Part shown: in pieces, positions 36,474 through 54,508 of the stretch
Numbering within the stretch: the stretch's first letter is position 1
How the letters are laid out: every line of letters begins with the position of its first letter
Source of the DNA: a virus
Taxonomy: Duplodnaviria; Heunggongvirae; Uroviricota; Caudoviricetes
Length of the DNA stretch: 64,000 nucleotides
Reading direction: 5' to 3' (one strand)
IMG/VR virus record: IMGVR_UViG_3300033075_001920
Position numbers and translations under genes: made by a program
The notes under the pieces: generated by a model
Database searches by the model: none
What the model was told of the DNA's origin: nothing
Seen by the model: only the letters and a program-made list of their open reading frames with translations

Positions 36474-36475
36474 AA

Positions 36476-38055: not shown

Positions 38056-38117
38056 TTTATTTTCACATTTGATTGTATTGCTTTCATCTTAAAAGTAATC
38101 TGCATTAAAACATTAAT

Positions 38118-38531: not shown

Positions 38532-38535
38532 TTTT

Positions 38536-39875: not shown

Positions 39876-39879
39876 GGCT

Positions 39880-40050: not shown

Positions 40051-40057
40051 AATTTGA

Positions 40058-40525: not shown

Positions 40526-40531
40526 AATGAT

Positions 40532-41679: not shown

Positions 41680-41811
41680 ACAGATTTGATAATTAAGTTT
41701 TTTTGATTTTACCGGTTGCTACTTCCTTCTTTGACTTACTACTTGAAATACAATCCAAAATGAGCAGGATCAAAGAAAGGATTGCAACAGTCCTGAAAAA
41801 GCAATTTCTTC

Positions 41812-42204: not shown

Positions 42205-42257
42205 TGTAATTGTGATTCAACATTATACCATTGTTTTAATATTTCCAAATAAATTAT

Positions 42258-42821
42258 CTAAGGGTATTGAACAGGGTTTTTTGAGAAAACCAAGATCTTT
42301 CCCTCAAATGAGGGCATATACTTGTTTTCATTAGAATTAAACCATTCTAAAAAATTTCTATGTCCAAGTCCATCATTCTCTGCTAGTTTATTGATTGTAT
42401 CATCGTAATGATCAAAAAGCCATTCGCCTCCATTGAATTTTATAGCATCAAGTCCAAAGCCTAATTCAACCGGGATAATTTGATTAATTGTGGAGCACGC
42501 AAATATCATCTGAGCTGTGCGGTATGGTCTGCCGCTCCAAACGCGTAAAGAAGCCGGTTCTCCTTCCTTAAAACGGGAGGTCCTTCGGATAGTGTGAATT
42601 TTGGTTCTTGTGGTTTCAAAGTCAAGGTAGAGGGAATCAAAAAAGCTGTTAATCTGTTTTAACGAAAACCGGTCGCTATTTTCTTTGATCAGGAACTGAC
42701 GGTATTTTTCATTTATAGGAATATGCAGTCCTTTTAGAACAGATTCCACAAAATAAGTAGATTGGCCAGCCCTTGGATGGTAATGGGGGAATTCCCTGGA
42801 AAATGATAATACCTTTGCCAT
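42258..42821 (-). CDS. hypothetical protein
   Basis: 187-aa ORF. Confidence 0.45.
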   Translation of the reverse strand: MAKVLSFSREFPHYHPRAGQSTYFVESVLKGLHIPINEKYRQFLIKENSDRFSLKQINSFFDSLYLDFETTRTKIHTIRRTSRFKEGEPASLRVWSGRPYRTAQMIFACSTINQIIPVELGFGLDAIKFNGGEWLFDHYDDTINKLAENDGLGHRNFLEWFNSNENKYMPSFEGKILVFSKNPVQYP

Positions 42822-43027
42822 TATTGATTTGCTTCGTTAAAGATTTTCCATCCTCGATTAAAATGCTCCTGGTTTCTGTAAGCCCAAAATTCCTTAGGGG
42901 AGCATCGAACCCCGTCTTCCATCACATATTCATCCTCTTCCTGTTTTACCCATTCGCCACTAGAAAAATATTCATGAGTAAGTACTTTTCCGGCAAGCAG
43001 AGCTTGTTTTGCTTCTAGCATGTTCAT
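42821..43027 (-). CDS. small hypothetical protein
   Basis: The track start at 43123 overlaps the methyltransferase gene by 73 nt. The ATG at 43027 (MNMLEAKQALLAGKVL...) removes the overlap. Confidence 0.4.
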   Translation of the reverse strand: MNMLEAKQALLAGKVLTHEYFSSGEWVKQEEDEYVMEDGVRCSPKEFWAYRNQEHFNRGWKIFNEANQ

Positions 43028-43049
43028 ATCTGATAATATTTGTAAGTGG

Positions 43050-44570
43050 TTATAATTTTTCCGGTAATGTTTGCCCTTTAATCTTCGCATATCTCTGCAT
43101 AAGTCTGGCCCAGACGTTTTCATCTTTGAACTTTAAGTGCAGGCTTCCTTTCATATATCCCTTAATTTCAAAGAAACCCCAATCCATCCACTTGCCAAAT
43201 TCAGATTTCTGTTCTACAATTTCAAGTTCAACACCTACTTTGGCAGCCTCCTGCTTTACATGAACCAGCGAATCGTATTTATCTTCGTGCAGGTATTTAT
43301 ATTCTCCCCATGATCGGATAAACTGTCCGTCTTTTTTAACATGGAATGAGTACCTTGTTAAATTGTACAAATCCGGTATGGTGTCATAGTCAATTCCTTC
43401 ATTGGCGGCAATAACCTTTACAAGGTCATTTAAGCGCTGTGCGTTCGAATAAGAACTGTGGGCGGATTTGGCGTACATACGACCTACTTTGTATCCTTTT
43501 TCAGTCATGTAGTCAAGGATGAATTTTTTGTTCAACATATAACCGGAATTGGTTTTCCATCCTTCTACGTTGTAGCGGTTTTCGTGCGTATGGCGCGTAA
43601 AGTTATCGACGGCCTCTTCCAAAGCTTTATTAAAAATCTGGTCTTTGGTCCCACGGATAATATCAAACATTTTGTAGATATTTCTCATAGTGAAAGGGAT
43701 TTGAGTCTGAGTTTCTACAAACTTATTGATTTCACCAATTACACCAGCAGTGAGATACTTAGACATATTCATTTCATTGAATAAATGCTCCCATGCTTTC
43801 TTCTGAAGTGCTTTTTTAAACTCGTCATGCGTACATACAGTATCGTTGTACCCAACTTGGAAGGTAAAACCACCCACGCCGAAAGGAGCGGTATACTTGT
43901 TCATTTTTTTATTTAATTCCAAATGCTCATCAAAGCACTTTACAGAGCCGATATATCTTTGGACAATATCACGAACATAATTGTATTTCATGATTCCTTC
44001 CCTTGCCGGTCCTTCGGGTTCTTCCTCGAGAAAAAATCCATCAAATTCATTGTTTTCATCTGCAGGCTTGAATAAGCGTATTAAGCCGACATGGACATCG
44101 GTACTGCGCTCAGCATCTGAAAAGGGATTACCTAAGTTTTCAAGACTTCCATATGATTCAATAATTGGAAACAGTTCCTGTGCTGCAGTTCTATACTGGT
44201 TTTTAATGCTGCTATGGTTTACCAGTGAAACAATTTCACATCCTGCAGGAGCAATCTTCCATGCATGCAAAATATGGGCGCAATCGTTGGAAAAAGGAGG
44301 ATTCATAACTATAGCCCCAATATGGCTTACTTCATTAGGAACTACCTGTAAAAAGTCGTTTTTCAAAAACTGAGCTTTACTACTGATAATTTTAGCAAGA
44401 TCCATATGAATTTCACAAGCCAAAACTTTTGCCCCATAGCTTTTAAGCACATCTACAATGTTACCTTTACCGGCTGATGGCTCTAAAACAGTTTTACCAT
44501 TTACGTCCATTCCATGCAGCATTGTATGTATGGTATTTTCGGGGGTTGGATAGAAATCTGAATTAAACAT
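43050..44570 (-). CDS. N6-adenine DNA methyltransferase (gamma class, NPPF) with large C-terminal domain
   Basis: FYPTPENT, VLEPSAGKGN (motif I) and IVMNPPFS (motif IV), followed by ~300 aa of unassigned domain. Confidence 0.7.
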   Translation of the reverse strand: MFNSDFYPTPENTIHTMLHGMDVNGKTVLEPSAGKGNIVDVLKSYGAKVLACEIHMDLAKIISSKAQFLKNDFLQVVPNEVSHIGAIVMNPPFSNDCAHILHAWKIAPAGCEIVSLVNHSSIKNQYRTAAQELFPIIESYGSLENLGNPFSDAERSTDVHVGLIRLFKPADENNEFDGFFLEEEPEGPAREGIMKYNYVRDIVQRYIGSVKCFDEHLELNKKMNKYTAPFGVGGFTFQVGYNDTVCTHDEFKKALQKKAWEHLFNEMNMSKYLTAGVIGEINKFVETQTQIPFTMRNIYKMFDIIRGTKDQIFNKALEEAVDNFTRHTHENRYNVEGWKTNSGYMLNKKFILDYMTEKGYKVGRMYAKSAHSSYSNAQRLNDLVKVIAANEGIDYDTIPDLYNLTRYSFHVKKDGQFIRSWGEYKYLHEDKYDSLVHVKQEAAKVGVELEIVEQKSEFGKWMDWGFFEIKGYMKGSLHLKFKDENVWARLMQRYAKIKGQTLPEKL

Positions 44571-44574: not shown

Positions 44575-44582
44575 CAAAATTA
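44575..44582 (-). promoter_or_regulatory. Bacteroidota-type -7 promoter box (TAATTTTG on - strand)
   Basis: + strand CAAAATTA is the reverse complement of TAnnTTTG. It lies 4 nt upstream of the start at 44570 and 2 nt from the palindrome. Confidence 0.45.
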
Positions 44583-44584: not shown

Positions 44585-44602
44585 GTTATTTTACAAAATA
44601 AC
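44585..44602. promoter_or_regulatory. 18-bp palindromic operator GTTATTTT-AC-AAAATAAC (copy 1 of 3)
   Basis: Perfect 8-bp inverted arms with a 2-bp spacer. Identical arms occur at 51088-51105 and 53838-53855. Confidence 0.65.
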
Positions 44603-44779
44603 AATAAATATTTTCATAAAATTGGTAAAATGCAGAAAATCAGCAATAAAAAATAAATACATGAATAAAATACGTAGTATTAAGTAAATATTAACCGGAT
44701 ATACCTTTTTAATATTTTTTTTATTGTGAACAAATATTATGTAATTTGTAATATATAAGCAATTAAAACTTACACAGTG

Positions 44780-45445
44780 ATGGAAAAAATAGATATAAAA
44801 AAAGATTTTGTAATATCAAATCTATTCCGAAAATACAAAAGGGAACTTGATGAACAAAAAATATCGACTAAGGGATTAAGAAAATCATTAGAACTTATCG
44901 GAGATGGTGAAATAATTGAAAAATCGGAATACAATATCGAGGGTGATAATTTAATGTATAAAGAATTTTCTAAGGATCAAACAAAAATATTTGTTGTTCA
45001 TGCGCAAATTGCGAGAAGTCCTTATGGTGGGCCATTCGGATATGCTTATGAAATAGGTGTTTATTTAAATGATCCAAGCACTATTCAGATAGGTGGTGGT
45101 TATGGGACGTCGGGAATAATTCAAATAAAACATACCAGTCTATTTGCAAAAGGTTTTGGAGATGAAGTTTATTTTAATGAAAATATCATTTCAAAGGTTT
45201 GTGATGTTATTAAAGATTACTTTGATTTTTCAATTAAAATGAGTCAAGGTGGATCAATAGGAAATAAAGGTACATTTAAATCGCTTGGCTCAGCAAAAGA
45301 ATTAGGAATAAAACCAGATATTAAATCGCATGATATGATTGCTATCTGTGATTGCGGGGGAAAATTCAGCTATCAAAATTCAAAGAAAAATATACCCTGG
45401 CAATGCCCCGAATGTAACAAAATAAAACGGATTAAAACTGTTTAA
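44780..45445 (+). CDS. hypothetical protein with C-terminal zinc ribbon (opposite-strand island gene)
   Basis: The ATG at 44780 follows a GTG at 44777. C-terminal CDCGG...CPECNK. It is the only + strand gene inside the - strand block. Confidence 0.5.
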   Translation: MEKIDIKKDFVISNLFRKYKRELDEQKISTKGLRKSLELIGDGEIIEKSEYNIEGDNLMYKEFSKDQTKIFVVHAQIARSPYGGPFGYAYEIGVYLNDPSTIQIGGGYGTSGIIQIKHTSLFAKGFGDEVYFNENIISKVCDVIKDYFDFSIKMSQGGSIGNKGTFKSLGSAKELGIKPDIKSHDMIAICDCGGKFSYQNSKKNIPWQCPECNKIKRIKTV

Positions 45446-45498
45446 ATTTACTGAGAGAGGTTTTTCTGATAGGATACTATTGGCATACCAAATAATTT

Positions 45499-45765
45499 TT
45501 ATAGAAGTTCAATCGCTTTTACAATCATACTCTCGTATTCTGAAATATCGGTATCCGGTTGATCGTTTAGAGTTTGATTAGGATTTGCCTTCAATTCATC
45601 GTGCATGACATGAGCTTGTGGAGGATTTTTACTCTTCCAGGACTCAATAGCACCAAGCTCGGTCTTAAGCATATTTTTTGCTAAGTCCGGTCCATATTTC
45701 TTCCGCATAAAGCTTGATAACTCCTCGGCGGAATGAAACATCACAAATATTTCTGGTTTATACAT
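45499..45765 (-). CDS. hypothetical protein
   Basis: 88-aa ORF. Confidence 0.45.
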   Translation of the reverse strand: MYKPEIFVMFHSAEELSSFMRKKYGPDLAKNMLKTELGAIESWKSKNPPQAHVMHDELKANPNQTLNDQPDTDISEYESMIVKAIELL

Positions 45766-46360
45766 AAAGTCTTTGTATTATATCGATTCCATAAAAAACA
45801 TGATCACCTCTCTGCAGTGGAAGTGTACCTGGGAGATAAAGTGGATGAGCTGGTGAACCGTCGCTGTTGAGTTTGATATGAAATCCATCCGGGAAATTTG
45901 ATTTCAACCATTTGTCTTTTTTAAACTGTGCTCCATCCTTTCCCCAAGCGTACACGACGCAGGCAGAATCTTTAGCCATTTCCTTTAAATAGAACAAATT
46001 TTGCTCCACAATTTCAACGGTTTCACTTTGAGCGTATTGCGAAAATAATTCTTTCGGGTTTGGAGTTCTGAAAGTCCATAAATTACCAACATAGAACCCG
46101 CCGGCCTTCCAGTATTTTGAAAAAGAGATAAGTCTTCTTATAGTAGCATCATTGATATTGTGGGAAGCGGTCGAAGGATTAAGCATTACAAAAAGAATCT
46201 TTGGCCTGTCATCCCAGTAGCGATACAAGGTATATCGGTGGGACATATCTTCGGAAAATGTTGCACTGGACAAAATCTTTCCATTTTGATCGTTGGTACT
46301 GAGTGTTTTGGTTTTTAACCAAGCTCTGTCTTGTATCATTTCATTCATAATTTTTGCCAT
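45758..46360 (-). CDS. DUF1643 family protein
   Basis: ILFVMLNPSTAS...DATIRRLISF...GGFYVGNLWTFRTPNPKEL matches the DUF1643 signature by eye. Confidence 0.65.
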   Translation of the reverse strand: MAKIMNEMIQDRAWLKTKTLSTNDQNGKILSSATFSEDMSHRYTLYRYWDDRPKILFVMLNPSTASHNINDATIRRLISFSKYWKAGGFYVGNLWTFRTPNPKELFSQYAQSETVEIVEQNLFYLKEMAKDSACVVYAWGKDGAQFKKDKWLKSNFPDGFHIKLNSDGSPAHPLYLPGTLPLQRGDHVFYGIDIIQRLYV

Positions 46361-46611
46361 GCCATTCCGTTCCAGGTATGTTTTATACCCTGAACAATTT
46401 TTTCACTTACTCCGGATATTAATTCTTCGGTTGTTTCGTTAACTATATTTTGAATTCTGTAGCCATGATTGTAATATTTAGGATCATCGCATACGGTCTC
46501 GAGTTTCTGTTTTGCAATAAACTTATCAGGAGCCTCAATGGTAATTGGCTTTTCAATATCCTTAAAAAAAAATTTATACCGGTTCATTCTATTTAAAAAG
46601 CGGGTGTCCAT
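46345..46611 (-). CDS. hypothetical protein
   Basis: 88-aa ORF. Confidence 0.45.
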   Translation of the reverse strand: MDTRFLNRMNRYKFFFKDIEKPITIEAPDKFIAKQKLETVCDDPKYYNHGYRIQNIVNETTEELISGVSEKIVQGIKHTWNGMAWQKL

Positions 46612-47000
46612 TCTGCTTCAACCCATTCTGCAGGAGCGATAAGAAAAATTAAATTTTCATCTTTACTGATTCTATCTTCAAAGCACATTCGATACACATT
46701 TGCCAAAGAATCGGGATGTTCCATAATAAACCGGTCAGTCGTTTTTACTTTTCCGCAGTACAATTCGTATGGAGGATAGTATCCTTTTATAGCCGGGATA
46801 TCATACATTTGATAATCCCCATTGAGAATTAATTTTTTATCGCTTACACAATTGATGACATTGTATTTATCGATGTAATAAAATCCATTGGGGTCATCGC
46901 CTTTGTGGTTGTAATAATTTACTCCATTATCTCGTAATAGATAAGAAATAATGATGTTTCCTGTTTTTTTGGTACCGTCTGATGCAAATACTGCTTTCAT
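46593..47000 (-). CDS. hypothetical protein
   Basis: The internal ATG at 47000 (MKAVFASDG) abuts the upstream stop. The track start at 47066 would overlap by 67 nt. Confidence 0.45.
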   Translation of the reverse strand: MKAVFASDGTKKTGNIIISYLLRDNGVNYYNHKGDDPNGFYYIDKYNVINCVSDKKLILNGDYQMYDIPAIKGYYPPYELYCGKVKTTDRFIMEHPDSLANVYRMCFEDRISKDENLIFLIAPAEWVEAEWTPAF

Positions 47001-47215
47001 TATACAATTGTTGGAATTTTTGCGCGGTTGAGTCTTTGATAAAATACTTTCAGGCAGTCGGGACAAAATTGTTTCATGTCTTTCTGCCTAAGAGCATCTG
47101 ACCAAGAACAGCATGATTGGTTATACCGTTTTTTCATCGTATTCTTAATAGATGGAGACATGCTTGAATTCATCAAGCAAAAAATATTTCCATCTCTTTT
47201 AATATGAGTTGCCAT
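47000..47215 (-). CDS. small Cys-containing protein
   Basis: 71-aa ORF containing CCSWSD...CPDC. Confidence 0.4.
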   Translation of the reverse strand: MATHIKRDGNIFCLMNSSMSPSIKNTMKKRYNQSCCSWSDALRQKDMKQFCPDCLKVFYQRLNRAKIPTIV

Positions 47216-47550
47216 TATTGTATTAAATTTTCATATCCCCTGAGACATCTGGAATAGTTCAGCCACTGGGCAGCATCAATAATATATTTGTCCTGATTAA
47301 TGCTTATGTCAATGGAATTGTTGCGCCTTACGCGATATTTAAGATCGATCCTCGAACCAACTCCATATCTGGGCTCACGAAACTTTCCGGTTTTTACAGG
47401 TTCAACCCGCTTGGTATTATCTTCCAAAATCCAAACCTTGGAGTGTTTACTGCTCGTATAAGCGACGATTGTGCCAGCGCTGTCCATATGCTCGCTTTTT
47501 GAGCAACCGAAGCACCAGGTGGCAAATATGGCAAAAATCAGAGTTTTCAT
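47215..47550 (-). CDS. lipoprotein
   Basis: The internal ATG at 47550 gives MKTLIFAIFATWCFGC (signal plus lipobox) with ATGA coupling to the upstream gene. Confidence 0.55.
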   Translation of the reverse strand: MKTLIFAIFATWCFGCSKSEHMDSAGTIVAYTSSKHSKVWILEDNTKRVEPVKTGKFREPRYGVGSRIDLKYRVRRNNSIDISINQDKYIIDAAQWLNYSRCLRGYENLIQ

Positions 47551-48287
47551 AAATTCAATGTGAAAGATCCGCCAAAGTGAAGTTTGCCATCGTAAAAACC
47601 ATTCAGCCCGAAGCGCTTTCTTTTTGACAATACACACAGGCCGGCATTGGGCAGGTTGTTATAAAGTCCGCCATTAACAAGCAGACCTTTGTAAAGGGAG
47701 CGATAAAGCTGAATGTTTATTACCATAGGGCTTGATTTAACCTCGGATTTATTGGCATAGTACCTCAGGCTGGATTCAAACCCTATATGACGGCTGTATC
47801 CGTTAAATCCGGCTCTTAATCCTGTCTGGTATTTAGAACGGTCAAAACGACCATCTACACCAACATGCCAATATCCCTTCATATTGATAAAGCCCATAAA
47901 GCTAAAAAGGCATTCAGTGCTCTGCGCGTAGCTGATGTTTAAATTTGCTCTTTTAAGCAAATCATCATAAGAAAATCCCGCAAATATGAATTTTGGCCTT
48001 TTCATATCCTCGTCAGGTAGTAAGTTCTGATTGTTTACCATTATTAGCAGTTCGGAATTAAACCTAATGTTTGTAAGCATGCCGCTTTCTGAATTTCCAA
48101 AATGTCCATAAGCTTTTTCCGGAACTGTTGAAGCAGGTTGCGTAAAGTGGCCTAACGTGGTCCGGAGCACCGGAGTCTTTACCCCAAAATTTAATCGAAG
48201 CAAAGACATGTCTTCTCCGTTAATCCGGATTGATTGCCCCTGGACTGCAGTGGCAATTACAATGAGTAAAAAAAGTATTGATTTCAT
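47547..48287 (-). CDS. secreted beta-barrel outer-membrane-like protein
   Basis: Signal peptide MKSILFLLIVIATAVQG. The body has alternating hydrophobic/polar beta patterns rich in G/Y/F/N/R. Fold is inferred only. Confidence 0.4.
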   Translation of the reverse strand: MKSILFLLIVIATAVQGQSIRINGEDMSLLRLNFGVKTPVLRTTLGHFTQPASTVPEKAYGHFGNSESGMLTNIRFNSELLIMVNNQNLLPDEDMKRPKFIFAGFSYDDLLKRANLNISYAQSTECLFSFMGFINMKGYWHVGVDGRFDRSKYQTGLRAGFNGYSRHIGFESSLRYYANKSEVKSSPMVINIQLYRSLYKGLLVNGGLYNNLPNAGLCVLSKRKRFGLNGFYDGKLHFGGSFTLNL

Positions 48288-48748
48288 GGTTGTTTGTTCT
48301 GATCGTTTCTGATTGGAATAGGAATCTGAATTCTAAAATATAGAGATCTGATAAGGCTATACCATCTGAATTTTTGAAGATAAGTATTGATGGATTTTAA
48401 TCCCTGATGGAACGTTTGCTGATTGGACGGTGCTGGTTTCCTGCGCTCTACCTTCGTGTAGTTATCGATGCGCTTGTCTAAAAACCGGTTAAAATCATCC
48501 CCAAGGTCTTTCTTGTATGGGGATCTATACCATTTGGCAAAAGCGGCAGTATCAAATCCCCGCATGCGCATATCCCGGAACATCCAAACCATATGGGGTA
48601 TTGGTTTTTCTTGTTTTTTAACATTTTTAGGGCGATTACCGAGCATTTCTCCCAAGACGAGTATAACACCAATCATTAGCGCCATCCAGACACCAATTGG
48701 CAAATTAATGAGATTGTAAAGTATATTCATAAGTAGTTTGTTAATCAA
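48284..48748 (-). CDS. N-terminally anchored membrane protein
   Basis: 154 aa with helix INLPIGVWMALMIGVILVLGEML. Confidence 0.5.
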   Translation of the reverse strand: MINKLLMNILYNLINLPIGVWMALMIGVILVLGEMLGNRPKNVKKQEKPIPHMVWMFRDMRMRGFDTAAFAKWYRSPYKKDLGDDFNRFLDKRIDNYTKVERRKPAPSNQQTFHQGLKSINTYLQKFRWYSLIRSLYFRIQIPIPIRNDQNKQP

Positions 48749-48754
48749 TTTTAT

Positions 48755-49057
48755 TTAAGTTTTGTCAATCCCTTCTATCAGTAATTCAAAAAGGGCAGCC
48801 CTTGCGGCGTCTCTAAAAGAAGAGTATTGCATACGACCAATTTTATTTTGTATCTTCTTGCAAAATTCAAGATTATCCTTAATATTTTGCTTCACCAATT
48901 CAACGCATTCTAAAAACATGCAAGCAAATTGTTCATCATTTCCATCAATGTGCTCACTTGCAAATTTAATAATTTCCGACTGAGGTTTATAGCTATTATA
49001 CATGGCAACCATTTCAGTCTTTAATTTCCAAAGTCTGTCAATTTCCTGTTGTTCCAT
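48755..49057 (-). CDS. hypothetical protein
   Basis: 100-aa helical ORF. Confidence 0.45.
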   Translation of the reverse strand: MEQQEIDRLWKLKTEMVAMYNSYKPQSEIIKFASEHIDGNDEQFACMFLECVELVKQNIKDNLEFCKKIQNKIGRMQYSSFRDAARAALFELLIEGIDKT

Positions 49058-49277
49058 TTTTTAAAAAATAAATACGTAAGTTAATTCGAAGTAAAGAATC
49101 GATTGTAACACCAAATAAATCACTCATTTTGACAATGATTTCTATAGGAGGATTACAACGGGATTCTTCATATGCCCCAACGGCGGATCTGGAAACACTG
49201 AGCTGCTGAGCCAAATCACTTTGAGTCATCTTCCTTTTGCTACGTAAAAATACAATATTTTCACTCCAAATGCTCAT
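49038..49277 (-). CDS. XRE/Cro-C1-type helix-turn-helix transcriptional regulator
   Basis: FLRSKRKMTQSDLAQQLSVSRSAVGAYEESRCNPPIEIIVKMSDLFGVTIDSLL is a canonical HTH_3 pattern. Confidence 0.8.
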   Translation of the reverse strand: MSIWSENIVFLRSKRKMTQSDLAQQLSVSRSAVGAYEESRCNPPIEIIVKMSDLFGVTIDSLLRINLRIYFLKNGTTGN

Positions 49278-49687
49278 AATTTGATAGCAAAGGGCAGTAG
49301 AGACGGATAATTCTCTTCACATTCTATACAAAGTCCATTAAAGATGGTAAAAGCGTCTTCTCTGGATTTAGCCTTTTCTTTTCCGGCATTGAAAAACAGA
49401 TAGATGTTTCCGGTCTCCGAGTCCCATGCCCCGAACGAGAACTGTCTTGTAAGGTTTTTGTTCTTTAATTTAATGGGATTTGCAATCCGGAACTTCCTTT
49501 TGCTTTCGACAAATTCATTTATGGCTATATGGTATTTACCTTGCCATATTATTGTCTGTTTGCAGCCCTTTATAAGCTTATCATTGCGCTCTAGTAGTAT
49601 TTCAGGATTCTGATCGTAATGCATAAGCGATTCCGAGTCAAATAACTGGGAAGGGGATGCTAAAAATAACTTTATTGGTTCTGCCAT
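49274..49687 (-). CDS. hypothetical protein
   Basis: 137-aa ORF coupled to the HTH gene. Confidence 0.45.
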   Translation of the reverse strand: MAEPIKLFLASPSQLFDSESLMHYDQNPEILLERNDKLIKGCKQTIIWQGKYHIAINEFVESKRKFRIANPIKLKNKNLTRQFSFGAWDSETGNIYLFFNAGKEKAKSREDAFTIFNGLCIECEENYPSLLPFAIKL

Positions 49688-49712
49688 GTTCTATATGATA
49701 ATTTTATACTTT

Positions 49713-50159
49713 TTATTTCTGACACATTTTTAAGTGACGCGAATAACCTCCCATTTGTGTACCAATAATTCTTTCACATTTAGGGCATTTAATATACATA
49801 TAACTTCCTGCTCTACCTGTTGGGAATTTGCCATCTATTTCGCTTACAAAAAAACCACGATGCGATTCAAAAAATTTTTTATTTAAAAACCCATCAACGA
49901 GCCAGACCTGACTATATTCAGATTTTCTAATAAATTCACATCTAAAACTTCCACTATTGGTTCTGTATCCATTTTCTAAAATAAATTCATGTCCTCCGTT
50001 AATAGTGTACACAAGATGCCACATTTGATCGGTAGACTTTCTTACGCGCTTTACTTTTAATACATCCTCACCATTGTTTATATATGCCGATTCTCCAATA
50101 GAAAGAAATAATTTATTGTCGCCAATTGTGAATTCGTATTTATATTTTTTTTGTTTCAT
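49713..50159 (-). CDS. hypothetical protein with C-terminal C2HC-like finger
   Basis: 148 aa with CPKCERIIGTQMGGYSRHLKMC. Confidence 0.45.
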   Translation of the reverse strand: MKQKKYKYEFTIGDNKLFLSIGESAYINNGEDVLKVKRVRKSTDQMWHLVYTINGGHEFILENGYRTNSGSFRCEFIRKSEYSQVWLVDGFLNKKFFESHRGFFVSEIDGKFPTGRAGSYMYIKCPKCERIIGTQMGGYSRHLKMCQK

Positions 50160-50197
50160 AATTATTTTAGGTTAGTTATACATATAATAACCTTTAT

Positions 50198-50950
50198 TTA
50201 TGCTTTCTTTTTCTTCTTATCTTCGAATACCAGCTGTTTGAAATTAAATCCAAGTTTTCTAAGGTAGTTGTGTACTATTTTTCTGTTTTCTTTCGTGCCT
50301 CTGTAATAGATACAATCGGTCCTGTAAGCTTCAAACTCATTTCCGAGAAGTGCAGCCATGTCATTCATCATTTCATAACACTTGTATCTGATTGACCTGT
50401 ACATGTCTTTCATTTTTGGGTGTTCAGGTTCAATGATCACCGGCTTGGTTTTATCGAGCTTCCCCTTTTCGAAATTCTGATAAGCAGTATTTCTGCCAAG
50501 TACAGCTAAGGCAGCCAGACGAACTCTTTTATATTCATCCCCGCCGGCTCTTTTAAAGGTATTATCAGAAATCATTCCAAGGCGGTATGCCATTACCCAG
50601 TAAGCTGAATCAATATCGGTACCTTCCAGTTCGCCGTAGGAATCATCGTAATCGTAGTTTGTTACATTGGTTGGAAGTTTTTTTGGAGCTTCCCAATCAG
50701 GGTGTACCTGAAGGAACTTTCTTGCATCCATTTTTACAGATCTGAAAACCCATAATTGATTGATTGCAAAACCCTCCTCATTCCGGTTTGGAAATGAATA
50801 ATCGATGTTATTATGAATGATGGTGGTCATGTAACTGGTCTGACGGAACAAAAAAGTCTTACCTTTTTTTTCGAGTGTTTTCTTTAACACCCCAGGCTTG
50901 CGTCTGGCGTTAAACCTTGTTTCAATAATTTCCAAATCCTTTCTAACCAT
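50198..50950 (-). CDS. hypothetical protein
   Basis: 250-aa basic ORF. See the rejected polymerase-motif note. Confidence 0.5.
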   Translation of the reverse strand: MVRKDLEIIETRFNARRKPGVLKKTLEKKGKTFLFRQTSYMTTIIHNNIDYSFPNRNEEGFAINQLWVFRSVKMDARKFLQVHPDWEAPKKLPTNVTNYDYDDSYGELEGTDIDSAYWVMAYRLGMISDNTFKRAGGDEYKRVRLAALAVLGRNTAYQNFEKGKLDKTKPVIIEPEHPKMKDMYRSIRYKCYEMMNDMAALLGNEFEAYRTDCIYYRGTKENRKIVHNYLRKLGFNFKQLVFEDKKKKKA

Positions 50951-50953
50951 ACG

Positions 50954-51067
50954 TTATCTATCTAAGAAGTGGGGCTTTTTACGCATAAGATATCTGCCCA
51001 AACAATACAAGGTTATTGGCATAGAAATCATAAGCGCGATACCGATCCAAAAATATACTATTTCCAT
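50954..51067 (-). CDS. micro-ORF, single-helix membrane peptide (37 aa)
   Basis: Not in the track. MEIVYFWIGIALMISMPITLYCLGRYLMRKKPHFLDR. It starts 10 nt after a -7 box and ends 3 nt before the next ATG. Confidence 0.4.
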   Translation of the reverse strand: MEIVYFWIGIALMISMPITLYCLGRYLMRKKPHFLDR

Positions 51068-51077
51068 AATTACGGGA

Positions 51078-51085
51078 CAAATATA
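51078..51085 (-). promoter_or_regulatory. Bacteroidota-type -7 promoter box (TATATTTG on - strand)
   Basis: + strand CAAATATA is the reverse complement of TAnnTTTG. It lies 2 nt from palindrome copy 2, the same spacing as at copy 1. Confidence 0.45.
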
Positions 51086-51087
51086 GT

Positions 51088-51105
51088 GTTATTTTTTAAA
51101 ATAAC
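51088..51105. promoter_or_regulatory. 18-bp palindromic operator GTTATTTT-TT-AAAATAAC (copy 2 of 3)
   Basis: Perfect 8-bp inverted arms identical to those of copies 1 and 3. Confidence 0.65.
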
Positions 51106-51115
51106 AAGAGATATT

Positions 51116-52156
51116 TTAAATTTCTCCCCCTTTTTCGAATTTAGATATAGCCAGATTGGTTTGTTCTATAAGGGCATTGCTCTGAGCGAGGTAGTCTTTT
51201 TTACTGATAATTTTATCTCTGAGCAGTCTTTCCAATCTGTCGAGTTGTTTTTCCTGACGGTCCATAATAGCCTGAATATTTGCAGCTCTTTCTGAGCCGG
51301 ATATTTTACCCGGTTTCGGAGCAGGAGGTGGTACCGGTGGCGCTGGGGGTTGCTTACCTACTTTTACTTTAACTTCTGGGCGCTTACGCTTACGCTTCTC
51401 TTTTTTAGATAATTCCTCTTTGCGCCTCTTTTCAAGTTCTTTTTGCCTTTCAATGACATCCTTCCTTCTTTCTTTCCTGATTTCCGGGCTTGGCTGGGGA
51501 AGTTCTATTTCGGATTCTTCAAACGTCTGTGTGGGCGGGATGGGCTCACCATTGGTATCAACTAGGGTAAACTGGATAAAATAACTACTGGCTTTACCAT
51601 CATCCTGCTTTCCTTTTCGAATAACAACAGATCCAACCCACTCAGGGCCGGATTTGTTTTCAATATCCATCCTCAGATTTTCAACAATCTGATTGAGCCC
51701 GGAAGAAAAGTATTCGTATTTAAATCCTCCATTGGGCATGTATAGGCTCAGCATGCCCGTGGTACCATATTGGTCGCCGGCATTACATTCAAAACGAATA
51801 TTAAGCGGAGTGACCATAGCTGCAAAGTCCGTGGTAAGAAAGTCATCAATTTCCCACCAGGGGATACCGGTGAGGGATGCGATGTCTAATTGCAGTGGAT
51901 TGAAGTATCGTTCAGCTTTAACTTCTTTATCTCCAAATTCGAGATCGAAGGCTGTTTTCCGGATATCCTTTACTTTAACCTTTCTAAAATTCTGTCCTTT
52001 ATAGGAGAGATAAGTTTCATGAATTAAGGCTTTTTCCTGTTCAGGCGTTAATTCAAGTTTATTGGATTTTAGTTCTTTTAGTACACTTCTTTTGACCTTC
52101 TGATAGAGCCGAGAGGAAGCTTTTATCTTTTGAGATTTAGACTTTGATCTGGTCAT
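51116..52156 (-). CDS. basic/coiled-coil protein, first gene of the leftward early unit
   Basis: 346 aa with a K/R-rich N-terminus, a central beta-rich domain, a K/E-rich coil and a PPAPPVPPPAPKPG tract. Confidence 0.5.
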   Translation of the reverse strand: MTRSKSKSQKIKASSRLYQKVKRSVLKELKSNKLELTPEQEKALIHETYLSYKGQNFRKVKVKDIRKTAFDLEFGDKEVKAERYFNPLQLDIASLTGIPWWEIDDFLTTDFAAMVTPLNIRFECNAGDQYGTTGMLSLYMPNGGFKYEYFSSGLNQIVENLRMDIENKSGPEWVGSVVIRKGKQDDGKASSYFIQFTLVDTNGEPIPPTQTFEESEIELPQPSPEIRKERRKDVIERQKELEKRRKEELSKKEKRKRKRPEVKVKVGKQPPAPPVPPPAPKPGKISGSERAANIQAIMDRQEKQLDRLERLLRDKIISKKDYLAQSNALIEQTNLAISKFEKGGEI

Positions 52157-52173
52157 AAAGTAAAGGTGGGATG

Positions 52174-52181
52174 CAAATGTA
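52174..52181 (-). promoter_or_regulatory. Bacteroidota-type -7 promoter box (TACATTTG on - strand)
   Basis: + strand CAAATGTA is the reverse complement of TAnnTTTG, 17 nt upstream of the start at 52156. No palindrome is adjacent. Confidence 0.4.
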
Positions 52182-52367
52182 TTATAAAAATTATTATTTC
52201 AAAATATTAATAGTTATTGTAATTGCAAGTCATTGCAGGAGTAAGGAGAAAAAACTATTTATGTCAAATATTATAAATAATTATTCACATTAACGAATTA
52301 ATATTTGCACAGATTAAATTTAATGTATTTATTTGTGAACTTTTCATTAAAAAAGTAATTGGTAAAG

Positions 52368-52400
52368 CAGGGACTTCTTCGGGAGCCCCTGTTTTATTTT
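52368..52400 (+). terminator. orphan terminator-like hairpin with C(UUCG)G tetraloop
   Basis: CAGGGACTTC/TTCG/GGGAGCCCCTG forms a ~9-bp stem with one mismatch, followed by TTTTATTTT. No + strand ORF lies upstream. Confidence 0.45.
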
Positions 52401-52414
52401 ATCGCAATGTATTG

Positions 52415-52422
52415 TATATTTG
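52415..52422 (+). promoter_or_regulatory. Bacteroidota-type -7 promoter box (TATATTTG)
   Basis: TAnnTTTG match 5 nt upstream of the GTG start at 52428. Confidence 0.4.
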
Positions 52423-52427
52423 CCTAA

Positions 52428-53114
52428 GTGAAGTTTAAAACCGAATATATTTTATTTGTACTTGGCGGATTGTTTTCCATAATTCTATTAACCAGCTCTA
52501 AGGCAAAAGGCAAAAGGATTAATCCAAAGGGTATGACCGTCGCGTTTATAGGTGATAGTCAAATGGCAAATTTCACAGCATCCGGATGGCAAAATCAGAT
52601 GATTAGGGAATACGGAATGAAATTATTGCCGGTACCCATGAACAATGGAACAGGGGCTTCAAAAAACAGCAATCTGGCACAGGTTGGTAAAACTACCACT
52701 TGGATGAAGAATATACTTTCTAAATTCTATAGTACCTGGCTTTTCCGGCCGGATATACTATTTATATACGGAGGAGGTAATGATATATCCAATGGAATCT
52801 CTCCAGAGTCAGTAGTAAAGAACACTCAGGACATGGTGGATCTTGCCAGAAAATATGGAACAAAACATATTTATGTTATTCCAGGATATCGGAGCAGTAA
52901 AGTATCTTTAAAGGCAAAAGCAATCTCAGAATCCGATGCTCAATTACGGGATTCTTATAAACAGATGTTAACAACCCAAATTAAAGGGGCAACAGTTCTG
53001 CCAATATGGGAACAAGCCGATTCAACTTATTCGAGCGATGGTTTACATATATCCGATCAGGCAAAGCTCAAACAGTTTAGCGATTTTATTTCTAAAGCAA
53101 TATTTGTCAAATGA
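52428..53114 (+). CDS. membrane-anchored SGNH/GDSL hydrolase (esterase)
   Basis: N-terminal helix YILFVLGGLFSIILLT. FIGDSQ (block I), IYGGGNDI (block III) and SSDGLHIS (block V, DxxH). Confidence 0.65.
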   Translation: MKFKTEYILFVLGGLFSIILLTSSKAKGKRINPKGMTVAFIGDSQMANFTASGWQNQMIREYGMKLLPVPMNNGTGASKNSNLAQVGKTTTWMKNILSKFYSTWLFRPDILFIYGGGNDISNGISPESVVKNTQDMVDLARKYGTKHIYVIPGYRSSKVSLKAKAISESDAQLRDSYKQMLTTQIKGATVLPIWEQADSTYSSDGLHISDQAKLKQFSDFISKAIFVK

Positions 53115-53758
53115 GAATAGACAGGAATATACGTATAGCAATGGGACTTGGCATACTGGCCGGTGCACTTCTGAGTATTAAAGTTGGTCGGGAGGTATAT
53201 GTAAAAACTGTTATCTCTGATAAGATGTTTTCTGACTCTGCAAAGTTGCTAGGTATTGACGAAGCTTTCCTTAGAGCCATAGCGGAAAAGGAGGGTGGAG
53301 GAAAAGGTTTTTATATCAATGGAAAACCTATAGTAAGACTGGAAAATCATATTTTAGAAAAATATTACCTGAGTAAGGGTAAAACTATTGATGCAGATAA
53401 GCTGTACGGAAGTAACAAATCCGGAATGAGTGAATATTCTCGCTTTGTAAGAGCATACAATGATGATCCGGAAGCTGCCATCTATGCAACTTCATTTGGT
53501 GCATTCCAAGTGATGGGATTTAATGCTATTCCAATTGGATATAAATCTTTGTATGAATTTTATAACAAGATGCACCAGTCTGCCGATAATCAATTCGAAG
53601 CAGTGGTTCGCTTTATAAAGAAGAATAATCTGACACCATATATTAAGAATCGGGATTATAACGGTTTTGCAAAAAAATACAATGGTTCTGTTTCATATGC
53701 GCAAGGTCCGAATGGAATTGCAGCTTTACATAAAAAGTGGCTTTCTAAAACCACGTAA
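53111..53758 (+). CDS. N-acetylmuramidase (DUF3380-type endolysin) with N-terminal signal-anchor
   Basis: SFGAFQVMGFN...GY.SLYEF...ADNQFEAVVRFI...DYNGFAKKYNG matches the DUF3380 muramidase family. The N-terminus IRIAMGLGILAGALLSI is Gly/Ala-rich and SAR-like. Confidence 0.7.
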   Translation: MRIDRNIRIAMGLGILAGALLSIKVGREVYVKTVISDKMFSDSAKLLGIDEAFLRAIAEKEGGGKGFYINGKPIVRLENHILEKYYLSKGKTIDADKLYGSNKSGMSEYSRFVRAYNDDPEAAIYATSFGAFQVMGFNAIPIGYKSLYEFYNKMHQSADNQFEAVVRFIKKNNLTPYIKNRDYNGFAKKYNGSVSYAQGPNGIAALHKKWLSKTT

Positions 53759-53837
53759 ATAAAAACAAAACAAGATAAAATAAAAATTAAATGCTCTGAA
53801 AAACAGCATTTTAAAACTATTTCACAAAAAATATGTC

Positions 53838-53855
53838 GTTATTTTATAAAATAAC
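53838..53855. promoter_or_regulatory. 18-bp palindromic operator GTTATTTT-AT-AAAATAAC (copy 3 of 3)
   Basis: Fully self-complementary 18-mer, 12 nt upstream of the -7 box at 53868. Confidence 0.65.
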
Positions 53856-53867: not shown

Positions 53868-53875
53868 TATGTTTG
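53868..53875 (+). promoter_or_regulatory. Bacteroidota-type -7 promoter box (TATGTTTG)
   Basis: TAnnTTTG match 33 nt upstream of the ATG at 53909. Confidence 0.4.
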
Positions 53876-53908: not shown

Positions 53909-54508
53909 ATGACTACAACCGCAAAACCATCTCAGTATGCTTCCGTTGATTTGAAATACAACATTGAATTAAAAAATGTAAAAATATTTGTACCCGGAAG
54001 CCAAGAAACAATCAACTTCGTAGCCGATATTCATATCAATGGAAAACATGCAGGTTACGCTAATAATGAAGGTCAGGGAGGTCCAACTTCTGTTCAATCA
54101 AAAGATCCACAAAGCAGAGAAGTGTTAAATCAAGTAGAGCAATACTTTGGAACACTTCCTAAAATGCAGTATCAAGGTATGAAAACAGAACTTACCTTTC
54201 AACCTACATTAGATGGCTACATAGATGAAATTATCAATGACCTTTTTAATGAAAAGGAAAGATCAAAGTATGAAAAAAAACTTCAGAAGGATTGCGAAGT
54301 GGGTATTTGTTTTGGGTCGGAAAATCACTATGCAATGGCGTACTGGAATGACCCAAGGAATACGCGTAAAAAAATCGCATTAGCTCAAATGCTTACCATG
54401 CCAAAAGGTAAAGAAACCATTGTGGCTAGAATAGCTGAAATACGCGCTACTTTGGAAGAAGGAGAAAGAATTTTAAACACCAATCTTCCATCTGAAATAC
54501 TTGCTTAA
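53909..54508 (+). CDS. hypothetical protein
   Basis: 199-aa ORF, the first gene after operator copy 3. Confidence 0.5.
   Translation: MTTTAKPSQYASVDLKYNIELKNVKIFVPGSQETINFVADIHINGKHAGYANNEGQGGPTSVQSKDPQSREVLNQVEQYFGTLPKMQYQGMKTELTFQPTLDGYIDEIINDLFNEKERSKYEKKLQKDCEVGICFGSENHYAMAYWNDPRNTRKKIALAQMLTMPKGKETIVARIAEIRATLEEGERILNTNLPSEILA

What the first reader, a model, noticed from the sequence alone, without database searches (positions are those of the whole stretch)
44585..53855. An 18-bp palindromic operator (GTTATTTT-NN-AAAATAAC) occurs three times, each at the head of a transcription unit
Copies lie at 44585-44602 (spacer AC), 51088-51105 (spacer TT) and 53838-53855 (spacer AT). All three have identical, perfect 8-bp arms. 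Copies 1 and 2 sit exactly 2 nt upstream of a - strand TAnnTTTG -7 box (44575-44582 and 51078-51085). Those boxes are followed within 4-10 nt by the first ATG of a leftward unit (the methyltransferase gene at 44570 and the micro-ORF at 51067). Copy 3 sits 12 nt upstream of the + strand -7 box at 53868. I found no other copy in the window, including at the late TATTTTTG promoters and at the promoters at 52174 and 52415. The geometry, with half-sites one helical turn apart, suits a dimeric HTH protein. The only recognisable regulator is the XRE protein at 49038-49277, which is itself inside the unit headed by copy 2, so autoregulation is possible. This looks like a three-operator switch controlling the accessory and modification genes.
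Basis: seen in the sequence. Interest (0 to 1): 0.7.

Follow-up and report, generated by a model that had tools for sequence, protein, structure and literature searches.

The report
Conserved palindromic operator in phage promoters
Three identical 18-bp palindromes sit inside Bacteroidota-type promoters of an uncultivated phage. The same sites are kept in distant relatives, so this is a real regulatory protein-binding site of a familiar kind, but the protein that binds it is still unknown.

Summary
GTTATTTT-NN-AAAATAAC occurs exactly three times in the window (44585, 51088, 53838), against 0 expected. All three copies are intergenic, and it is the only repeated palindrome with 7-bp arms in 64 kb.

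In copies 1 and 2 the palindrome fills the spacer of a canonical Bacteroidota promoter (TTG-N19-TAnnTTTG), and its first G is the G of the -33 element. In copy 3 it lies one helical turn further upstream.

Relatives fetched by protein homology keep orthologous sites upstream of the same genes. Between the window and L190 (about 56% protein identity) the arms match at 47/48 positions, the flanks at 37/75 and the central dinucleotide at 1/6. In relatives some sites lie just downstream of a -7 box, at about +1 to +18. That placement fits an operator, not a fixed RNA polymerase contact.

The best reading is an operator for a dimeric DNA-binding protein, most likely a repressor, on early or non-structural promoters.

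The proposed XRE autoregulator is weakly supported. It is the only recognisable HTH protein in 32-64 kb, but a homologue exists only in the closest relative. It is absent from the orthologous regions of six other relatives that carry the operator.

A rival is that the element is an intrinsic early-promoter signature (AT-rich -18/-28 motifs). Overall this is a new member of a known kind, of moderate interest.

The parts
44585..44602 (.). Palindrome copy 1, GTTATTTT-AC-AAAATAAC. On the - strand it spans about -32 to -15 of the leftward methyltransferase promoter.
   Evidence: Exact match and sequence. An orthologous site sits upstream of the DUF4942 methyltransferase homologue in L190 at 15606.
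44602..44604 (-). The -33 element TTG of the copy-1 promoter. Its G is the outer base of the palindrome, giving TTG-N19-TAATTTTG.
   Evidence: Read from the sequence. The geometry matches the Bacteroidota -33/-7 consensus cited in PMC6847099.
44575..44582 (-). The -7 box TAATTTTG, 2 nt downstream of copy 1 and 4 nt upstream of the ATG at 44570. This predicts a leaderless mRNA.
   Evidence: The same 4-nt geometry is conserved in L190 (TATTTTTG-tccc-ATG). PMC6847099 places the transcription start 4-5 nt after the box.
43050..44570 (-). First gene of the leftward unit (31.9-44.6 kb): a DNA methyltransferase with a C-terminal DUF4942 domain.
   Evidence: Pfam DUF4942 at 7.6e-23. PHROG methyltransferase families matched.
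51088..51105 (.). Palindrome copy 2, GTTATTTT-TT-AAAATAAC. It lies in the spacer of an internal leftward promoter, between the 346-aa gene and the micro-ORF/250-aa gene.
   Evidence: Orthologous sites in L180 (1931) and L190 (9966), and variants in L157, L158, L171 and L192, all lie upstream of the 250-aa homologue or the gene preceding it.
51078..51085 (-). The -7 box TATATTTG, 2 nt from copy 2. The -33 TTG is at 51105-51107 on the - strand.
50954..51067 (-). A 37-aa hydrophobic micro-ORF, the first ORF after the copy-2 promoter.
   Evidence: A comparable micro-ORF (MELTICIIGL...) follows the site in L180. It is absent in L190.
50198..50950 (-). Conserved 250-aa protein that serves as the family marker. 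It has a palm-polymerase-like fold and is not a recognisable DNA-binding regulator.
   Evidence: 73 homologue clusters. AlphaFold2 model with pLDDT 91. Foldseek hits are only reverse transcriptases and family-B polymerases, and they are weak.
49038..49277 (-). A 79-aa XRE/HTH_3 protein. It is the candidate binder in this phage, but it is not co-conserved with the operator.
   Evidence: Pfam HTH_3 at 1.9e-10. The closest solved relatives are PbsX-family regulators and the CylR2 repressor. A homologue is found only in L180.
53838..53855 (.). Palindrome copy 3, GTTATTTT-AT-AAAATAAC, spanning about -42 to -25 of the rightward promoter. This is one helical turn further upstream than in copies 1 and 2.
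   Evidence: The orthologous L190 promoter has a site 11 nt upstream of the same TATGTTTG box, plus a second site 4 nt downstream of it.
53868..53875 (+). The -7 box TATGTTTG of the rightward unit (53909 to beyond 64000). It has a G at -9, which is unusual, yet the box is identical in L190.
   Evidence: PMC6847099 reports G at -10/-9 as virtually absent in F. johnsoniae.
53909..54508 (+). First gene of the rightward unit: a 199-aa orphan protein.
   Evidence: No homologue other than itself. No Pfam or PHROG match.
52177..52184 (-). The -7 box TACATTTG of the 346-aa gene. This is a non-structural promoter without the palindrome, so it serves as a contrast.
   Evidence: Sequence. No palindrome at up to 3 mismatches.

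Best explanation
The 18-bp dyad is an operator: a binding site for a dimeric, sequence-specific DNA-binding protein. It is built into host-type Bacteroidota promoters (-33 TTG / -7 TAnnTTTG) that drive three non-structural, presumably early, transcription units. These are the methyltransferase-led leftward block, the block led by the palm-polymerase-like gene, which also contains the XRE gene, and the rightward block from 53909.

In copies 1 and 2 the site spans about -32 to -15 and shares its outer G with the -33 TTG. In copy 3 it spans about -42 to -25. A bound dimer would therefore compete with sigma and RNA polymerase. The most likely role is repression: shut-off or timing of early transcription.

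Shown: the sites exist, are non-random, are promoter-embedded and are under purifying selection across a phage family.

Inferred: protein binding, the sign of regulation, early timing and the identity of the binder. The 79-aa XRE protein is the only recognisable candidate here, at roughly 1 in 4. An unrecognised phage protein or a host factor is at least as likely.
For: - Statistics. There are 3 exact copies against 0 expected. It is the only repeated palindrome in 64 kb. All copies lie in the 4.6% of the window that is non-coding.
- Promoter context. The geometry is TTG-N19-TAnnTTTG with the palindrome as spacer. The consensus is taken from PMC6847099.
- Independent replication in a relative fetched by protein homology, not by the pattern. 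L190 has 4 sites at up to 1 mismatch against 0 expected. All are intergenic, and they lie upstream of the orthologues of the same genes as window copies 1-3.
- Selective conservation between the window and L190. The arms match at 47/48 positions, the 25-nt flanks at 37/75 and the centre at 1/6 (Fisher p = 1.4e-9). L190 and L191 differ only in the central dinucleotide of one site.
- Breadth. 39 non-redundant sites at up to 2 mismatches were found in relatives. They include sites not selected by the search pattern, such as the second site about 460 nt downstream in 12 loci.
- Variable register. Sites also start 3-6 nt downstream of a -7 box, at about +1 to +18 (L190 7228, L192 10813, L199 2147, L157 3104/4274). 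Others form pairs 41 bp apart flanking a -7 box (L190) or tandem sites 24 bp apart (L159). This is operator-like, not a fixed polymerase contact.
- Specificity. The late TATTTTTG promoters and the promoters at 52177 and 52415 lack the element. The inner core TATTTTNNAAAATA occurs nowhere else in the window.
- Rarity in cellular genomes. There are only 7 hits in 596 Gb, about the chance expectation I estimated by hand. By contrast, a metagenome scan gave 33 hits, at least 14 of them in this phage family by tblastx and several more in other phage-like contigs.
Against: - There is no binding or transcription data, so the promoters and the early timing are predictions.
- No DNA-binding protein co-occurs with the operator in the sampled loci.
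- The T-tract and A-tract of the arms fall at about -28 and -18. AT-rich motifs occur at these positions in ordinary F. johnsoniae promoters, so part of the conservation may reflect promoter strength.
- The dominant register (2 nt from the -7 box, 23/39 sites) is partly an ascertainment effect, because the metagenome pattern required it.
- Arms that stay invariant across phages with 50% protein identity or less are unusual for phage repressor-operator pairs, which normally diverge.
Confidence: 0.62

Rival explanations
1. The 79-aa XRE protein (49038-49277) binds all three sites and autoregulates its own unit, forming a three-operator switch of the Cro or C-protein type.
For: - XRE is a real HTH_3 protein and the only recognisable regulator in 32-64 kb.
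- It lies downstream of copy 2 in a gap-free, co-directional gene string.
- Its closest solved relatives (PbsX-family regulators, CylR2) are small XRE-type regulators. From general knowledge, CylR2 is a dimer that binds a promoter palindrome.
- The closest relative, L180, keeps both the site and an XRE homologue with a similar helix 3 (S/A-R-S-A/S-V-G/A-A-Y-E).
Against: - The XRE gene is absent from the orthologous regions of L157, L158, L171 and L181. It is also absent within +-10 kb of the 250-aa gene in L190, L191, L192, L193, L199 and L200, all of which carry the operator.
- XRE has no close homologue among 5.8 billion proteins.
- The nearest IMG/VR homologues (34-43% identity) have no palindrome nearby.
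- XRE is only 51% identical in L180, where the neighbouring 250-aa protein is 88% identical.
- XRE is the fifth gene of the unit, not adjacent to an operator.
Confidence: 0.25
2. The element is not an operator but an intrinsic early-promoter signature. It would be an optimised version of the AT-rich -28/-18 spacer motifs of Bacteroidota promoters, contacted by host RNA polymerase or by a polymerase-bound factor to make strong early promoters.
For: - F. johnsoniae promoters carry AT-rich motifs centred at -18 and -28 that are more pronounced than the -33 element (PMC6847099).
- In the 2-nt register the T-tract lies at -31 to -25 and the A-tract at -22 to -16.
- The copy-3 register is shifted by 10 bp, so it stays on the same helical face.
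- The G of the palindrome doubles as the -33 TTG.
- More distant relatives keep only the inner TATTTT-NN-AAAATA at the same register (L196).
Against: - An asymmetric polymerase does not explain the perfect dyad symmetry, including the outer GTTA/TAAC.
- Other promoters of the same phage lack the core entirely.
- In loci retrieved without the pattern, about half the sites are out of register: downstream of the -7 box at +1 to +18, or 9 nt upstream.
- There are only 3 hits in Bacteroidota species genomes, although strong host promoters would be expected to approach such an optimum.
Confidence: 0.17
3. It is an operator, but for a conserved host protein rather than a phage protein. The phages would tie early transcription to a host regulator.
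For: - The same exact arms occur in several mosaic, only distantly related phage groups of differing GC content: the window family, the IMGVR_3300044675_005311/B570J29032 group with 4 sites in 13.5 kb, and L162, L167/L170 and L168.
- No phage-encoded binder tracks the site.
Against: - Cellular genomes show no enrichment of the promoter-embedded site.
- It does not match the Bacteroidetes SOS motifs CTAA-N5-TTAG or GGA-N5-TCC (PMC8565304).
- I could not recall a Bacteroidota regulator with this site, and a literature search for the sequence found nothing relevant.
- Lineage-specific variants (ATTATTTT..AAAATAAT in L200, GTTATCTT in L157/L192) fit co-evolution with a phage protein as well.
Confidence: 0.2
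4. The promoter-plus-palindrome unit is chiefly a mobile or recombinogenic regulatory cassette, like the T4 PeSL elements. It would mediate module shuffling, with any regulatory role secondary.
For: - The module sits at boundaries of gene modules that differ between relatives.
- It precedes non-homologous genes in different phages. For example, the gene after the lysis cassette is a 199-aa orphan in the window, a 126-aa protein in L157 and a 109-aa protein in L190.
- It occurs in mosaic phage groups.
Against: - An 18-28 bp identity is short for homologous recombination.
- Orthologous sites are stably kept upstream of the same genes (methyltransferase, 250-aa protein) across about 50% protein divergence.
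- The stem is weak (-3.4 to -4.2 kcal/mol), unlike PeSL stem-loops.
Confidence: 0.08
5. It is a chance AT-rich repeat, or an RNA hairpin or terminator.
For: - The genome is AT-rich.
- IMG/VR holds at least 120 exact palindromes, mostly inside coding sequence of unrelated phages.
Against: - 0 of 100 shuffles gave a match.
- The sites are intergenic and conserved at orthologous positions.
- The hairpins have 7-8 A-U/G-U-rich pairs and fold at -3.4 to -4.2 kcal/mol, with no U-tract logic.
- Copies 1 and 3 lie upstream of the predicted start sites of their own promoters.
- The terminator scan was at chance level.
Confidence: 0.02

Closest known systems
Lambdoid, P22 and 434 operators bound by Cro/CI-type (XRE-family) repressors. 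The comparison rests on general knowledge.
   Same: These are 14-18 bp dyad-symmetric sites with contacted outer bases and a free centre. They overlap the promoter's sigma-recognition elements, occur several times per genome and are sometimes in tandem (24-bp centre spacing, as in L159).
   Different: - The promoters here are Bacteroidota -33/-7 type.
- The sites are spread over three or more distant units, not one immunity region.
- The arms are invariant across highly diverged phages, whereas lambdoid operators diverge with immunity.
- No cognate repressor gene is co-conserved.
CylR2 and PbsX-type small XRE repressors, the closest solved relatives of the window XRE protein.
   Same: The window XRE is a 79-aa HTH_3 protein of the same size class. 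From general knowledge, CylR2 is a 66-aa dimer that binds an inverted repeat in its target promoter.
   Different: Sequence similarity is limited (E about 1e-6 to 1e-8). No binding data exist here, and the operator sequences are unrelated.
Streptomyces phage phiC31 conserved inverted repeats (CIRs) and mycobacteriophage L5-type stoperators. The comparison rests on general knowledge.
   Same: Many copies of one short conserved repressor-binding sequence are scattered through the early region, near promoters or gene starts.
   Different: - Stoperators are asymmetric and orientation-dependent.
- CIRs belong to a temperate phage with a known repressor gene.
- Here lysogeny is not shown and the binder is unknown.
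Restriction-modification controller (C) proteins and C-boxes.
   Same: A protein of about 80 aa of the HTH_3 class is present. One controlled unit starts with a DNA methyltransferase. The operators are palindromic and overlap a promoter.
   Different: There is no C-box consensus (GACT..AGTC type), no restriction endonuclease gene, and the C-like gene is not adjacent to the operator.
MerR-type operators, which are dyads located inside the promoter spacer.
   Same: The dyad lies between the two promoter elements.
   Different: The 19-nt spacer is the normal Bacteroidota length, not an overlong one. No MerR-family protein was found among the ORFs of 32-64 kb. Sites also occur outside spacers.
T4-type PeSL (promoter-early stem-loop) cassettes.
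   Same: A repeated early-promoter module with a dyad sits at the borders of variable gene modules.
   Different: The stem is weak and AT-only and lies inside the promoter rather than downstream of it. No evidence for recombination at the sites was obtained.

Membership tests
Bacteroidota sigma-A (sigma-ABfr) promoter | A -7 element TAnnTTTG (TAHHTTTG) | tested here: met
   The boxes are TAATTTTG (44575-44582, - strand), TATATTTG (51078-51085, - strand) and TATGTTTG (53868-53875, + strand). The third has a G at -9, which is atypical according to PMC6847099, yet it is identical in the L190 orthologue.
Bacteroidota sigma-A (sigma-ABfr) promoter | A -33 TTG or TTTG placed 19-21 nt upstream of the -7 box | tested here: inconclusive
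   Copies 1 and 2 have TTG-N19. Copy 3 has no TTG at that distance. PMC6847099 notes that the -33 element is weak in F. johnsoniae in any case.
Bacteroidota sigma-A (sigma-ABfr) promoter | A transcription start 4-5 nt downstream of the -7 box | not testable with these tools
   This needs 5'-end mapping.
Phage repressor/Cro-operator pair (XRE family) | A dyad-symmetric operator of about 14-18 bp with a variable centre | tested here: met
   The 8+2+8 structure has invariant arms. The centre varies across sites (AC, TT, AT, TG, CA, GA, TA and others).
Phage repressor/Cro-operator pair (XRE family) | The operator overlaps core promoter elements or the transcription start | tested here: met
   Window sites span -32 to -15 or -42 to -25. 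In relatives, sites also lie at about +1 to +18.
Phage repressor/Cro-operator pair (XRE family) | A cognate HTH regulator gene is co-inherited with its operators | tested here: not met
   An XRE homologue is found only in L180. It is absent from the sampled regions of all other operator-bearing relatives. The sampling is partial, at 10-20 kb per genome.
Phage repressor/Cro-operator pair (XRE family) | Specific protein-DNA binding | not testable with these tools
   This needs EMSA, footprinting or pull-down.
R-M controller C-protein/C-box | A C-box consensus, a C gene next to its operator, and a restriction endonuclease gene | tested here: not met
   The sequence is unrelated to GACT..AGTC C-boxes (recalled from knowledge). 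XRE lies 1.8 kb from copy 2. No endonuclease gene was recognised among the ORFs of 32-64 kb scanned.
Intrinsic terminator or structured RNA | A stable GC-rich stem followed by a U-tract | tested here: not met
   The minimum free energy is -3.4 to -4.2 kcal/mol with AU-only stems. The terminator scan was at chance level.
Bacteroidetes SOS (LexA-like) box | The motif CTAA-N5-TTAG or GGA-N5-TCC | tested here: not met
   Motifs are from PMC8565304. The palindrome matches neither.
MerR-type spacer operator | A MerR-family regulator and an overlong spacer | tested here: not met
   No MerR domain was found among the ORFs of 32-64 kb scanned. The 19-nt spacer is the normal Bacteroidota length.

The most novel reading that the evidence does not exclude
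The palindrome may be a shared early-promoter code of a broad, uncultivated supergroup of aquatic Bacteroidota phages. It would be read by one highly conserved factor that is not a classical phage repressor. Candidates are a host protein, the host polymerase itself, or an unrecognised phage DNA-binding fold. Arm invariance across mosaic, 50%-identical-or-less phages would then reflect a common host-takeover or timing mechanism, and the promoter-operator cassette would move between phage genomes.
Probability: 0.2. Interest if true: 0.65.

Novelty: new member of a known kind. Interest (0 to 1): 0.45.

Why it matters
Transcription control in phages of Bacteroidota is poorly charted, to my knowledge. 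Their hosts use an unusual sigma factor and promoter type, and this phage family has no relative in the INPHARED collection of deposited phage genomes.

A short, exactly definable element marks a subset of promoters and is conserved across dozens of metagenomic relatives. That makes it practical in three ways:
- as a handle for annotating early regulons in uncultivated phages;
- as bait for finding the binding protein;
- possibly as a ready-made operator-promoter part for Bacteroidota genetic tools.

As biology it is an expected kind of element, so its value is incremental unless the binder turns out to be unusual.

Tried and rejected
- Close relatives in INPHARED: none at DNA level or with the 250-aa protein.
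- Scanning IMG/VR with the bare palindrome: at least 120 hits, mostly chance matches inside coding sequence of unrelated AT-rich phages, so uninformative.
- Methyltransferase homologues as a route to relatives: this gene is widely shared, and L121-L123 have no palindrome upstream.
- The orphan 199-aa protein and the XRE protein have no homologues, so neither gave a route to relatives.
- A host regulon: the genome scan gave only 7 hits, 3 of them in Bacteroidota, about the chance expectation I estimated by hand.
- The 250-aa protein as binder: it has a palm-polymerase-like fold, not a DNA-binding regulator fold.
- The roughly 105-aa protein shared by L157 and L183 as a common binder: it is absent from the window and L190, and present in operator-negative L194 and L196.
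- Window protein 4725-5387, shared with two other site-bearing groups: by my reading of its sequence motifs and a sub-threshold Pfam PAP2 hit, it looks like a PAP2-type phosphatase rather than a DNA-binding protein.
- All-against-all clustering of ORFs from site-bearing loci found no protein that tracks the site.
- Literature search for the sequence found nothing relevant.
- Extending beyond the window with the end genes failed because the proteins are not on record, so the other 68 kb of the 132-kb contig remains unscanned.
- The terminator or RNA-hairpin reading was rejected.

Full report
OBSERVATION

The pattern GTTATTTTNNAAAATAAC matches exactly three times, at 44585-44602, 51088-51105 and 53838-53855. 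None of 100 dinucleotide-preserving shuffles gave any match. Relaxing to three mismatches adds only 56151, a 3-mismatch site inside an ORF. That is at chance level: 2.1 expected, and 14 of 100 shuffles reach 4 matches. A de novo enumeration of perfect inverted repeats (7-bp arms, gap 0-8) shows this is the only palindrome that recurs in the whole 64 kb.

A simple gene map leaves 4.6% of the window non-coding, and all three copies lie there.
- Copy 1 lies 2 nt from the - strand box TAATTTTG (44575-44582), which is 4 nt from the ATG at 44570.
- Copy 2 lies 2 nt from TATATTTG (51078-51085), which is 10 nt from the ATG of a 37-aa micro-ORF at 51067.
- Copy 3 lies 12 nt from the + strand box TATGTTTG (53868-53875), and the ATG is at 53909.

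CONTEXT

The window is part of a 132-kb metagenomic contig. It belongs to a phage with Bacteroidota-type promoters and no relative in INPHARED at DNA or protein level. The gene blocks are:
- a long rightward, largely structural block (60-31789);
- a leftward block (31901-44570) that begins with a DUF4942 methyltransferase;
- a single rightward gene (44780-45445);
- a leftward block (45499-52156);
- a rightward lysis pair, GDSL lipase and muramidase (52533-53758);
- a rightward block from 53909.

Copy 1 heads the first leftward block and copy 3 heads the last rightward block. Copy 2 is internal to the second leftward block. The upstream 346-aa gene has its own box, TACATTTG, at 52177-52184 with no palindrome.

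Read in the direction of transcription, copies 1 and 2 give TTG-TTATTTTNNAAAATAAC-NN-TAnnTTTG. The outer G of the palindrome is the G of the -33 TTG. The spacing is 19 nt, which is the Bacteroidota sigma-A geometry (-33 TTTG / -7 TAnnTTTG, PMC6847099). All three copies also share an A-rich AAAATAT stretch 3-5 nt upstream of the palindrome.

RELATIVES

A metagenome scan for the palindrome followed within 0-3 nt by TAnnTTTG returned 33 loci. At least 14 of them encode homologues of window genes from 46-53 kb. Because that scan selects for the pattern, I also fetched relatives through homologues of the conserved 250-aa protein.

L190 comes from a 71.6-kb contig, and its marker protein is 56% identical to the window's. 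It has four sites at up to 1 mismatch against 0 expected. All four are intergenic, and they are orthologous to the window copies:
- One sits upstream of the DUF4942 methyltransferase, with the same 2-nt and 4-nt spacings as copy 1.
- One sits upstream of the 250-aa homologue, corresponding to copy 2.
- A pair flanks the same TATGTTTG box after the lysis genes, one 11 nt upstream and one 4 nt downstream, corresponding to copy 3.

Between the window and L190 the arms are identical at 47/48 positions, the 25-nt flanks at 37/75 and the central dinucleotide at 1/6 (p = 1.4e-9). The near-identical contigs L190 and L191 differ at one site only in the central dinucleotide.

Across relatives I collected 39 non-redundant sites at up to 2 mismatches. 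They include a second site about 460 nt downstream of the first in 12 loci, which the search pattern did not select. Variation is concentrated at inner positions 6-7 and, in more distant lineages, at the outermost bases (ATTATTTT..AAAATAAT in L200; GTTATCTT.. in L157 and L192). Relatives at 36-44% marker identity (L194, L196, L198) lack the site. L194 promoters share a different upstream element, and L196 keeps only the inner TATTTT-AA-AAAATA at the same register.

The same exact arms also occur at several promoters in other phage groups that are mosaically related. Examples are four sites in 13.5 kb of L183 and three in L162.

Cellular genomes show no enrichment. There were 7 hits in 596 Gb, about the chance expectation I estimated by hand.

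WHAT IT IS

Four features point to a binding site for a dimeric protein:
- the dyad symmetry;
- the unconstrained centre;
- selective conservation of both arms, including the outer G and C;
- restriction to a subset of promoters.

The placement matters most. In the window the site covers -32 to -15 or -42 to -25. In relatives retrieved without the pattern, about half the sites lie elsewhere. Some start 3-6 nt after a -7 box, at about +1 to +18 (L190 7228, L192 10813, L199 2147, L157 3104 and 4274). One pair, 41 bp apart, brackets a -7 box (L190). One tandem pair is 24 bp apart (L159). All of these positions would block RNA polymerase, so a repressor is the most economical reading. Both this and the assignment of the units as early are inferences.

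WHO BINDS IT

XRE 49038-49277 is a genuine HTH_3 protein. Its closest solved relatives are small XRE-type regulators: PbsX-family proteins and CylR2. Pfam scans of the remaining ORFs of 32-64 kb found no other DNA-binding domain.

The XRE gene does not travel with the operator, however. A homologue exists only in L180 (51% identity; the neighbouring 250-aa protein is 88% identical there). None is present in the orthologous regions of L157, L158, L171 and L181, nor within +-10 kb of the marker gene in L190-L193, L199 and L200. XRE has no close homologue in 5.8 billion proteins.

Other candidates were excluded. The 250-aa protein has a palm-polymerase-like fold. A protein of about 105 aa shared by two groups is absent from the window and L190. 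A protein shared with two other groups looks like a PAP2-type phosphatase, by my reading of its sequence motifs and a sub-threshold Pfam hit. No sampled gene family tracks the site. The binder is therefore unknown. I put XRE at about 0.25, with an unrecognised phage protein or a host factor making up the rest.

MAIN RIVAL

Baez et al. (PMC6847099) report that ordinary F. johnsoniae promoters have AT-rich motifs centred at -18 and -28. The two arms fall at exactly these positions in the common register, and copy 3 is shifted by one helical turn. Part of the conservation may therefore serve promoter strength.

Several observations argue against a purely intrinsic element:
- the perfect dyad, including GTTA/TAAC;
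- the absence of even the inner core from every other promoter of this phage;
- the out-of-register and downstream sites;
- the rarity in host genomes.

I give this rival about 0.17.

OTHER READINGS

Chance, RNA hairpin and terminator readings are rejected. The site matches neither Bacteroidetes SOS motif (PMC8565304).

VERDICT

The interpretation as a promoter-embedded operator is supported. The specific XRE autoregulation model is weakened. This is a new member of a well-known kind of element, found in an uncharted phage family, and of moderate interest.

Noticed in passing
window 50198-50950 (- strand): A conserved 250-aa protein defines a large uncultivated family (73 clusters) with no Pfam, PHROG, PDB-sequence or INPHARED match. 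The AlphaFold2 model is confident (pLDDT 91). Its only Foldseek PDB hits are right-hand palm polymerases: retron and HIV reverse transcriptases and E. coli Pol II. These hits are weak (E 1e-3 to 5e-2). The conserved motifs GTDIDSAYW, K..RLAALAVLG and YRTDCIYY (several positions invariant) resemble polymerase motifs A, B and C. It may be a minimal polymerase-like enzyme.
   Followed up: partly
window 44570 and 29625; L190 15638 and others: Several genes start 4-5 nt after a -7 box, which predicts leaderless mRNAs. This applies to 12 of 70 predicted promoter-ATG pairs in the window and relatives. It is conserved for the methyltransferase gene between the window and L190. F. johnsoniae transcripts are reported to be mostly leadered (PMC6847099).
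   Followed up: partly
L157 about 5400-6300: About eight direct repeats of ATGTCATTCGTCAGTTTTGGCAGG lie in the 900-nt intergenic region upstream of the 346-aa homologue. They look like iterons and may mark a replication origin. The window's equivalent region (52157-52532) has no such repeats.
   Followed up: no
L194 3488, 4306, 6533; L196 3100, 11926: Relatives that lack the palindrome have their own conserved promoter-upstream elements. L194 has cttatttttttt..TTTGGAAGTT. L196 has TGTATTTTAAAAAATATA at the same register. This suggests lineage-specific promoter or operator codes.
   Followed up: partly
window 31901-32833, 34384-35010, 43050-44570, 61399-62217, 57424-58350, 62900-63865: The window carries at least three or four DNA methyltransferase genes and two PAPS-reductase-like genes. 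The call for 31901-32833 comes from an overlapping ORF in another frame. This suggests heavy investment in DNA modification or anti-restriction.
   Followed up: no
relatives: L157 8771, L158 1278 and others: When the central dinucleotide is TG, the palindrome itself contains a perfect -7 box (TATTTTTG, or TATCTTTG in variants). This gives two -7 boxes 18 nt apart. None of the three window copies has this feature.
   Followed up: partly
window 53826-53837 and flanks of copies 1 and 2: An A-rich AAAATAT motif lies 3-5 nt upstream of each palindrome, read in the direction of transcription. It extends the similarity of the three modules to about 30 nt and may act like an UP element.
   Followed up: no
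window 4725-5387: A probable PAP2-type phosphatase gene, judged from its sequence motifs and a sub-threshold Pfam PAP2 hit. It is shared with two other phage groups (L167, L099, L176) that also carry the palindrome-promoter module.
   Followed up: partly
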